Positions 15,314 through 15,417 of a stretch of 64,000 nt of DNA are shown here, piece by piece. The translations under genes were made by a program, and so were the position numbers. The number at the start of each line of letters is the position of its first letter. Position 1 is the first letter of the stretch. The DNA lies in assembly GCF_003018235.1 (NCBI RefSeq), contig NZ_CP027437.1; one strand, 5' to 3'. This DNA comes from Escherichia coli (GTDB lineage Bacteria > Pseudomonadota > Gammaproteobacteria > Enterobacterales > Enterobacteriaceae). The notes beneath the pieces were generated by a model. It was not told the origin of the DNA and did not search any database. It worked only from the letters and a program-made list of their open reading frames with translations.

Positions 15314-15391
15314 GGGATTTTTGCACGAGAGTAGTTTAATTGAGTATGTAACTACATGATTTAAAATAATTTGTCTAATTCAACTTTTAAA

Positions 15392-15417
15392 CCGTATAAC
15401 CAAACGTATAACTAAAA
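15392..15417. repeat. Left-end direct repeat CCGTATAACCAAACGTATAACTAAAA (two tandem CGTATAACYAAA units); candidate att/arm site
   Basis: Matches 25493-25518 with one mismatch. Confidence 0.6.

What the first reader, a model, noticed from the sequence alone, without database searches (positions are those of the whole stretch)
15323..15417. Island boundary signals: 26-bp direct repeat of tandem CGTATAACTAAA units and a 9-bp copy of the proL 3' end
CCGTATAAC(C/T)AAACGTATAACTAAAA occurs at 15392-15417 and 25493-25518, with two further inverted copies of the 12-mer at 25463-25489 next to the integrase gene. These look like integrase arm-type binding sites in attL and attR, or the duplicated att core itself. 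Separately, GCACGAGAG at 15323-15331 matches the tRNA-Pro 3' stem region (25653-25661) exactly, as expected for a displaced tRNA 3' fragment at the far end of a tRNA-integrating element.
Basis: seen in the sequence. Interest (0 to 1): 0.6.

Follow-up and report, generated by a model that had tools for sequence, protein, structure and literature searches.

The report
Satellite island ends at tRNA-Pro
The repeats mark the two ends of a 10-kb phage-satellite island inserted at the proL tRNA gene: the 12-base repeats are most likely docking sites for the island's integrase, and the 9-base match is the damaged leftover of the tRNA end. This is an ordinary, largely already described arrangement.

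Summary
Comparison with an island-free yejO-proL junction puts a 10.3-kb island at about 15332-25647.

The island has PICI-type gene content: a P4/IntA-type integrase, an AlpA-like regulator, a RepA helicase and a capsid gene.

The shared att identity block is 17 bp, TTTGGTCGGCACGAGAG. It is intact at the tRNA end.

This "damage" to the displaced tRNA-Pro fragment is a published PICI trait. I reproduced it as a nested deletion series in about 365 E. coli genomes and in metagenome contigs.

The 12-mers are not the att core. They are absent from the empty site and lie inside the island, at +84.5 bp and -146.5 bp from the centre of TGGTCGG in the core (my reference point, not a mapped crossover). 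Two more inverted copies lie next to int.

In relatives at the same site, position and helical phase are kept while the sequence changes. The sequence tracks the integrase's N-terminal arm-binding domain, not AlpA.

So the arm-type-site reading is supported by comparison, though no binding has been shown. The closest precedent is the HE-PICI "doubled motif". I rate this a new member of a known kind, of modest interest.

The parts
15282..15312 (.). Chromosomal hairpin terminator between yejO and proL. After integration it stays at the far (attL) side, separated from the tRNA.
   Evidence: Terminator-like site. The same sequence lies directly next to the tRNA in the empty site L001.
15320..15331 (+). 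attL remnant of the 17-bp att identity block: TTTG + CACGAGAG, with GTCGG (5 bp) missing. This is the displaced, damaged 3' fragment of tRNA-Pro.
   Evidence: Alignment with the empty site. The same junction in relatives shows a nested deletion series. The phenomenon is described in PMC10111431.
15332..25647 (-). Island-specific DNA, 10,316 bp: a PICI-type phage satellite with its genes on the minus strand.
   Evidence: This stretch is absent from 'empty' genomes, whose yejO and proL are adjacent.
15393..15416 (+). P' arm doubled 12-mer (CGTATAACCAAA CGTATAACTAAA). Its centre is +84.5 bp from the centre of TGGTCGG in the core.
   Evidence: The same position is kept in types A and B although the spacer sequence has diverged.
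25495..25518 (+). P arm doubled 12-mer (2 x CGTATAACTAAA), co-oriented with the P' copy. Its centre is -146.5 bp from the centre of TGGTCGG in the core.
25463..25488 (-). Two further 12-mers in inverted orientation (25463-25474 and 25477-25488), 32-57 bp upstream of the int start codon.
   Evidence: Relatives have 2 or 3 inverted copies at the same place.
24190..25431 (-). Integrase, 413 aa, P4/IntA type, with an N-terminal arm-DNA-binding domain.
   Evidence: NCBIfam PRK09692, 554 bits. Pfam Arm-DNA-bind_3 at residues 8-94, Phage_int_M at 107-203 and Phage_integrase at 215-379.
23478..23684 (-). AlpA-like helix-turn-helix protein (68 aa), a candidate excisionase/regulator.
   Evidence: PHROG 66 and 2790, 'excisionase and transcriptional regulator'. 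Annotated as an HTH regulator in SCU-111.
25572..25607 (-). Island-borne hairpin terminator just downstream of the restored tRNA. It replaces the displaced proL terminator and shields int from tRNA read-through.
   Evidence: Terminator-like site with 16 pairs plus a T-run. It is present, with different stem sequences, in all four island types.
25648..25664 (+). attR copy of the 17-bp identity block TTTGGTCGGCACGAGAG, intact. It overlaps the 3' end of tRNA-Pro.
   Evidence: It is intact in every occupied proL locus examined.
25650..25726 (-). tRNA-Pro(GGG), proL, restored and intact.
   Evidence: ARAGORN. Rfam tRNA, 54.9 bits.

Best explanation
The window holds a 10.3-kb phage-satellite island of the Gram-negative PICI type. 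It was integrated by its own tyrosine integrase into the 3' end of proL.

Shown:
- The recombination sites share a 17-bp block, TTTGGTCGGCACGAGAG.
- The island supplies a new tRNA 3' end at attR.
- The original 3' end is displaced to attL, where 5 bp have been lost. What remains there is TTTG-CACGAGAG.

Inferred:
- The 12-mer CGTATAACTAAA is the arm-type site of the integrase's N-terminal domain. There are two tandem copies in the P' arm. The P arm has two tandem copies plus two inverted ones.
- In the circular form these sites would sit about 85 bp and about 147-185 bp on either side of the core.
- They would let integrase protomers bridge arm and core to build the intasome.
- Because the P-arm cluster lies 32-87 bp upstream of the int start codon, it could also let integrase repress its own gene. 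The same arrangement is shown experimentally for KplE1 IntS, and a cited paper title reports it for P4 Int.
For: - Empty site against both ends.
- Integrase domains, including Arm-DNA-bind_3.
- 12-mer statistics: 6 found against 0.11 expected.
- The 12-mers are absent from the empty site.
- A P-core-P' junction between two tandem islands (L005) shows the intact 17-bp block flanked by 4 + 2 sites.
- The P' pair is at +84.5 bp in all 10 type A and B islands measured. The P pair is at -146.5 bp in type A and at -135.5/-136 bp in types B, C and D, a difference of about one helical turn.
- The sequence changes in concert at both ends. Type B has CGTATAGCT[A/T]AA-CGTGTAGCTAAA in both arms.
- Natural domain swap. 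Type C and D integrases are 100% identical in the middle domain and 98% in the catalytic domain, but only 66% in residues 1-95. Their repeats are unrelated (GTATAACTAA against GTAGTCCCAAA), while the core-proximal P arm and AlpA are nearly the same.
- AlpA does not track the repeat. Window against L004: AlpA 97% identical, repeats different. Window against L003: AlpA 76% identical, repeats identical.
- Deletion series in the displaced fragment. Published description.
- Precedent for arm sites overlapping an int promoter: PMC2951348.
Against: - No binding or recombination assay exists for this element.
- The arm repeats adjoin the 5' end of int. A single recombination event could therefore swap repeat and N-terminal domain together through linkage alone.
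- For the D type I could not find the predicted matching P' copy.
- No sigma-70-like int promoter was found by the simple scan, so autoregulation is conjecture.
- The L005 junction comes from a tandem array, not from a proven excised circle.
- With 5 bp missing from attL, this particular copy may excise poorly, or may damage proL if it does.
Confidence: 0.78

Rival explanations
1. The 12-mers are bound not by the integrase arm domain but by AlpA or another island DNA-binding protein, acting as a directionality factor or transcription regulator at both ends.
For: PMC10111431 leaves this possibility open for the analogous HE-PICI doubled motif. An AlpA-like protein and a 77-aa ORF lie next to int.
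Against: Neither AlpA nor the 77-aa ORF tracks the repeat. Window and L004 share 97% (AlpA) and 88% (ORF77) identity but have different repeats. Window and L003 share only 76% and 70% but have identical repeats. Types C and D have almost identical AlpA but unrelated repeats.
Confidence: 0.1
2. The 26-bp direct repeat is the duplicated att core itself, that is, the crossover site.
For: It is the longest near-perfect direct repeat flanking the island (family D15).
Against: It is absent from the empty attB. It lies 61 bp and 129 bp inside the island boundaries set by the empty-site alignment. In L005 it flanks, rather than forms, the P-core-P' junction. The off-target insertion in a prophage gene joins at the 17-bp block, not at the 12-mers.
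Confidence: 0.01
3. The P-arm cluster is only an operator or promoter element for int, and the P' pair is a non-functional copy. Alternatively the repeats are replication iterons.
For: Four of the six copies sit 32-87 bp upstream of int. Arm sites and int promoters overlap in KplE1.
Against: The P' pair keeps an exact position (+84.5 bp) in types A and B although the spacer between it and the core has diverged strongly. The iteron-like repeats (CCTCACTTTT) sit elsewhere, at 20238-20429, just 3' of the helicase gene. That is where PICI origins lie according to PMC6092414.
Confidence: 0.06

Closest known systems
HE-PICI 'doubled motif' in attP (tgTGTATTGCantgTGTATTGCa; Mageeney et al. 2023, PMC10111431)
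   Same: It is a tandem doubling of a short motif with a 12-bp period. There are two co-oriented copies on either side of the attP crossover, at fixed distances of 81 +/- 2 and 132 +/- 2 bp there. Here they are at 84.5 bp and at 146.5 bp (135.5/136 bp in sister types). The integrases belong to the same broad PICI/P4 group.
   Different: The sequence differs: CGTATAAC(TAAA) against TGTATTGC, 5 of 8 core positions alike. Here two or three extra inverted copies lie next to int. The target is a tRNA gene rather than a prophage late gene. That paper reported no such motif in other PICIs and left the binding protein open. Here comparison points to the Int arm domain.
Arm-type sites of heterobivalent tyrosine integrases (lambda Int; KplE1 IntS, PMC2951348; P4 Int)
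   Same: The integrase has an N-terminal arm-binding domain plus a catalytic domain. The repeats are distinct from the core, lie on both arms of attP and are absent from attB. The int-proximal sites lie just upstream of the int gene, where the KplE1 intS promoter is overlapped by arm sites.
   Different: No footprint or genetics exists here. The site sequence and the strict tandem-pair layout are specific to this clade. The closest integrase in sequenced phages is only 55% identical.
'Damage' of the displaced tRNA fragment by PICIs (Williams 2002 as cited; Mageeney et al. 2023), with the CP4-57/ssrA precedent
   Same: [quoted passage not shown] Here the series is GGGATTTTT + a 0-6 nt prefix of GGTCGG + CACGAGAG. 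The window is the 5-bp class.
   Different: Nothing essential. I add class frequencies in complete E. coli genomes and show that near-identical islands carry different deletions.
Gram-negative PICIs such as EcCICFT073 (Fillol-Salom et al. 2018, PMC6092414)
   Same: The int-alpA-replication-late gene order is the same, and all of these genes are transcribed in one direction. The size is about 10 kb. There are iterons 3' of the replication gene and capsid-related genes.
   Different: The attachment site differs. The cargo includes a ClpP-protease/major-capsid fusion, a PerC-like regulator and a second tyrosine recombinase. Induction by a helper phage is untested.

Membership tests
Tyrosine-integrase att site with arm-type sites | The integrase carries a separate N-terminal arm-DNA-binding domain. 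| tested here: met
   Pfam Arm-DNA-bind_3 (PF13356) at residues 8-94, E = 5e-23.
Tyrosine-integrase att site with arm-type sites | There is a repeated motif, different from the core, on both sides of the crossover in attP, and it is absent from attB. | tested here: met
   Four copies on the int side and two on the far side. None in the empty site L001. The P-core-P' layout is seen in L005.
Tyrosine-integrase att site with arm-type sites | The motif specificity follows the arm-binding domain. | tested here: met
   The C/D natural swap: arm domain 66% identical, the rest of Int 98-100% identical, motifs unrelated. AlpA does not track the motif. Caveat: the repeats are physically linked to the 5' end of int.
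Tyrosine-integrase att site with arm-type sites | Direct binding of integrase to the sites, and a requirement for them in recombination. | not testable with these tools
   This needs EMSA or footprinting and att-site mutagenesis.
tRNA-integrating island with a restored target and a displaced fragment | An identity block is shared by attB, attL and attR at the 3' end of the tRNA gene, with the junctions defined by an empty site. | tested here: met
   The 17-bp block TTTGGTCGGCACGAGAG is intact in attB, in attR and in one P-core-P' junction. attL retains 12 of its 17 bp.
PICI-type 'damage' of the displaced tRNA fragment | A deletion of variable length starts at one fixed acceptor-stem position in the displaced fragment. 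| tested here: met
   The window lacks 5 bp. A 60-row sample of 365 complete genomes gave 0 bp: 3, 1 bp: 8, 2 bp: 18, 3 bp: 2, 4 bp: 29. Deletions anchored at the other end of GGTCGG: 0. Metagenome and viral loci add 5-, 6- and 10-bp classes, and CACGAGAG is never invaded.
Gram-negative PICI | int, alpA, replication and late genes lie in that order and are transcribed in one direction; the size is about 10-15 kb. | tested here: met
   Family description in PMC6092414.
Gram-negative PICI | Excision, replication and packaging are induced by a helper phage. | not testable with these tools
The only P-core-P' junction found is a tandem array, not an excised circle.
HE-PICI doubled motif | The consensus tgTGTATTGCantgTGTATTGCa. 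| tested here: not met
   Here the unit is CGTATAACTAAA. Only 5 of 8 core positions agree. The layout is the same but the sequence differs, so it works like that motif without being the same motif.
P4 satellite | The P4 marker genes (Sid, Psu, Delta, alpha primase-helicase). | tested here: not met
   None of the 12 island ORFs scanned matched these. Replication is by a RepA/AAA_25-type helicase, and the late gene is a protease/capsid fusion. Not every small ORF was scanned.

The most novel reading that the evidence does not exclude
The site-anchored deletion in the displaced tRNA-Pro fragment would be made by the integrase itself during integration and would work as an addiction device. Excision through the intact CACGAGAG segment would then install a proL shortened by 5 nt, punishing loss of the island. 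In addition, the 12-mer together with the N-terminal domain would form an exchangeable specificity cassette that recombines between islands. The addiction idea is already proposed in the literature but has not been tested.
Probability: 0.25. Interest if true: 0.55.

Novelty: new member of a known kind. Interest (0 to 1): 0.3.

Why it matters
The result fixes the exact ends of a satellite island, which is useful for annotation and for judging whether this copy can still move.

It extends the published HE-PICI doubled motif to tRNA-Pro PICIs, where it had been reported absent. It also gives comparative evidence that the binding partner is the integrase arm domain rather than AlpA. That makes a simple experiment obvious: swap residues 1-95 together with the 12-mers between the C and D types.

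The deletion series offers many natural replicates for studying how these integrases damage the displaced tRNA fragment.

None of this changes current understanding of site-specific recombination.

Tried and rejected
1. I first took L005 for an excised circle carrying attP. Its ends repeat internal int and island sequence, so it is two islands in tandem cut out as one provirus. I use it only as a P-core-P' junction.

2. I searched complete E. coli genomes for tandem P-core-P' junctions, with or without deletions. There was no match, so I cannot say whether the damage is specific to the chromosome-P' junction.

3. I searched viral contigs for the predicted far-end copy of the D-type doubled motif. 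Only the int-side copies and unrelated elements were found, so this test is inconclusive.

4. I considered that the 7-bp crossover is TGGTCGG and that the deletions are topoisomerase-like scars inside it. I downgraded this idea. CACGAGAG is invariably intact, and near-identical islands carry different deletions. This fits a crossover in CACGAGAG with the damage beside it, as the literature assumes. The data do not decide between the two.

5. The simple promoter scan found no int promoter.

6. Rfam found only the tRNA.

7. The phage collection holds no integrase more than 55% identical.

8. The TCCGGTG repeats near the core do not track AlpA or ORF77. What binds them is unknown.

Full report
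**Observation**

The 12-mer CGTATAACTAAA occurs six times in the window with at most one mismatch. Two tandem copies lie at 15393-15416 (+). Two inverted copies lie at 25463-25474 and 25477-25488 (-). Two more tandem copies lie at 25495-25518 (+). The chance expectation is 0.11, and no shuffle out of 100 reaches six. At up to 2 mismatches the count alone is not convincing.

The 26-bp direct repeat is 15392-15417 and 25494-25519, 25 of 26 identical.

The second copy lies in tRNA-Pro(GGG), 25650-25726 on the minus strand. As a bare 9-mer it is not significant, since 11 of 100 shuffles give two matches.

**Boundaries**

Most complete E. coli genomes have yejO and proL adjacent. One such empty site (L001) reads ...GGGATTTTTGGTCGGCACGAGAGGATTTGAACC.

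The window's left junction reads GGGATTTTT-G-CACGAGAG-TAGTTTAATT. The right junction reads GGGCGA-TTTGGTCGGCACGAGAG-GATTTGAACC.

So the shared att block is the 17-bp TTTGGTCGGCACGAGAG. It consists of the last 15 nt of the tRNA plus 2 nt beyond it, and it does not include the T-loop. This corresponds to the asymmetric 3'-end sublocation described in the literature.

The island-specific DNA is 15332-25647. The tRNA end (attR) has the block intact. The far end (attL) lacks GTCGG.

**What the island is**

On the minus strand, reading from the tRNA, the island encodes:
- a 413-aa integrase (NCBIfam PRK09692; Pfam Arm-DNA-bind_3 at residues 8-94, Phage_int_M, Phage_integrase);
- a 77-aa ORF;
- an AlpA-like HTH protein;
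- an Icd-like protein and a DUF4222 protein;
- a RepA-family helicase, followed by iteron-like repeats;
- a second tyrosine recombinase;
- a PerC-like regulator;
- a ClpP-protease/major-capsid fusion protein.

This is the gene order and one-way transcription of Gram-negative PICIs (PMC6092414). Only one of 5,426 complete genomes (SCU-111) holds more than 80% of this region. Sister islands with other cargo sit at the same site.

**The 12-mers**

The 12-mers are absent from the empty site and lie 61 bp and 129 bp inside the island. They are therefore not the att core.

A junction between two tandem islands (L005) shows the full layout in one piece: int, 2 inverted + 2 direct 12-mers, about 130 bp, the intact 17-bp block, about 60 bp, and 2 direct 12-mers. 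The contig is a tandem array, not a proven circle.

I measured positions from the centre of TGGTCGG in the core, used as a reference point. The far-side pair is centred at +84.5 bp in every type A and type B island, even though the spacer has diverged strongly. The int-side pair is centred at -146.5 bp in type A and at -135.5/-136 bp in types B, C and D, a difference of about one helical turn.

Four island types use the same proL block but carry different repeats:

| Type | Example loci | Repeat |
|---|---|---|
| A | window, L003 | CGTATAACTAAA |
| B | L004, L103, L147 | CGTATAGCTAAA / CGTGTAGCTAAA, the same pair at both ends |
| C | L060 | GTATAACTAA |
| D | L068 | GTAGTCCCAAA |

The C and D integrases are 100% identical in the middle domain and 98% in the catalytic domain, but only 66% in residues 1-95. 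Their core-proximal P arm and AlpA are nearly identical.

AlpA and the 77-aa ORF do not follow the repeat. The window and L004 share 97% (AlpA) and 88% (ORF77) identity but have different repeats. The window and L003 share only 76% and 70% but have identical repeats.

The repeat thus follows the integrase arm-binding domain. This is comparative evidence. Binding has not been shown, and the repeats are physically linked to the 5' end of int.

**The damaged fragment**

Across relatives the far junction reads GGGATTTTT + a prefix of GGTCGG (0 to 6 nt) + CACGAGAG.

- Metagenome contigs with the proL terminator flank gave all classes.
- Junctions found without requiring the flanks to be intact added a 6-bp and a 10-bp deletion and two odd variants. 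CACGAGAG was never invaded.
- A query built from all variants hit 365 of 5,426 complete genomes. An evenly spaced 60-row sample gave 0 bp: 3, 1 bp: 8, 2 bp: 18, 3 bp: 2, 4 bp: 29. Deletions anchored at the other end of GGTCGG: none.

Many of these genomes are clonal, so these counts are not counts of independent events. However, near-identical islands do carry different deletions. For example, the window lacks 5 bp and SCU-111 lacks 2 bp, although the aligned region is 98.6% identical.

The tRNA end is intact in every proL locus examined.

This is a published phenomenon. Mageeney et al. [quoted passage not shown] In their data set it is seen only with PICIs. They suggest that it may debilitate the tRNA gene on excision (PMC10111431).

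**Mechanism**

Shown: the junctions, the block, the site layout and the covariation.

Inferred:
- Integrase binds the 12-mers through its N-terminal domain and binds the core through its C-terminal domains. The fixed, phased distances let it bridge arm and core in attP, attL and attR.
- The int-side cluster, 32-87 bp upstream of the int start codon, may also mediate autoregulation. This is shown for KplE1 IntS, and a cited paper title reports it for P4 Int (PMC2951348). The simple scan found no promoter here.
- The crossover segment cannot be fixed from the sequence. The invariably intact CACGAGAG argues that it lies there, with the damage beside it.

**Off-target insertion**

The same island type has inserted into the prophage gene nanS-p (annotated as a SASA-family carbohydrate esterase) in two O111:H11 genomes. 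That site shares only CAC with attP at the junction, and 2 nt are lost overall.

**Comparison and verdict**

The closest precedent is the HE-PICI doubled motif tgTGTATTGCantgTGTATTGCa. It has two co-oriented copies at 81 and 132 bp from the attP centre, and its binding protein is undecided. The authors did not find it in other PICIs.

The proL islands have the same layout with a different sequence and with extra inverted copies. The general class, arm-type sites of heterobivalent tyrosine integrases, is textbook.

The arm-site reading is supported and the core reading is refuted. The 9-mer is correctly identified but is a damaged 17-bp block. This is a new member of a known kind, of modest interest.

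**Dead ends**

- The search for tandem junctions in complete genomes found nothing.
- The search for the D-type far-end motif was inconclusive.
- Rfam found only the tRNA.
- No close integrase is present in sequenced phages.

Noticed in passing
window 25572-25607 (-) and 15282-15312: The island carries its own strong hairpin terminator just downstream of the restored proL. The original proL/yejO terminator is left behind at the far junction. All four island types have such a hairpin, each with a different stem sequence.
   Followed up: partly
window 25542-25558 and 25626-25642 (+): Four co-oriented TCCGGTG repeats form two pairs 10 bp apart in the P arm, the second pair abutting the core. They account for 4 of the 10 plus-strand copies in the 64-kb window. 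Type B islands have TCCGAT[G/A] at the same place. The repeats track the int type, not AlpA or the 77-aa ORF. What binds them is unknown.
   Followed up: partly
window 20238-20429: Iteron-like repeats (CCTCACTTTTACTCCTCACTTTTT, three copies 83-85 bp apart, plus an inverted pair) lie immediately 3' of the RepA helicase gene. This is where PICI replication origins are reported to lie.
   Followed up: no
window 16054-16142 and 18603-18690: A repeat of about 90 bp (84-85% identical) lies just downstream of the capsid-fusion gene and again just downstream of the PerC-like gene. It is G+C-rich and ends in an A-run. Its function is unknown, and Rfam has no match.
   Followed up: no
window 18981-19994 (-): A second tyrosine recombinase of the XerC/D-like type (337 aa) sits in the middle of the island, away from the integration module. 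The sister islands L003 and L004 lack it. Secondary integrases in some PICIs are mentioned in PMC10111431.
   Followed up: no
L162 (NZ_CP077491.1 2968000-2992000); empty site L163: A type-A island with an identical integrase is inserted in the nanS-p (SASA esterase) gene of a lambdoid prophage in two O111:H11 genomes. The target, GTAGTAC-CAC-TCCGG, shares only CAC with attP at the junction, and the products lack 2 nt overall. This looks like an off-target event that happens to embed the satellite in a possible helper prophage.
   Followed up: yes
L005 / L028 (IMGVR_UViG_2695420855_000011): Two islands lie in tandem at proL. The internal P-core-P' junction has an undamaged 17-bp block, and the second unit carries only a truncated int. 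No such tandem junction was found in 5,426 complete E. coli genomes.
   Followed up: yes
L060/L061/L064 against L068/L069: Integrases that are 98-100% identical from residue 107 onward carry N-terminal arm domains only 66% identical, together with different arm repeats. This indicates recombination that exchanges the arm domain and its sites as one unit.
   Followed up: partly
window 22412-23473 (-): The mechanical ORF list gives a 353-aa ORF whose last 50 or so residues are Icd-like. In the near-identical SCU-111 island this stretch is annotated as a short Icd-like gene plus two small genes on the opposite strand. The long ORF is therefore probably not real.
   Followed up: no
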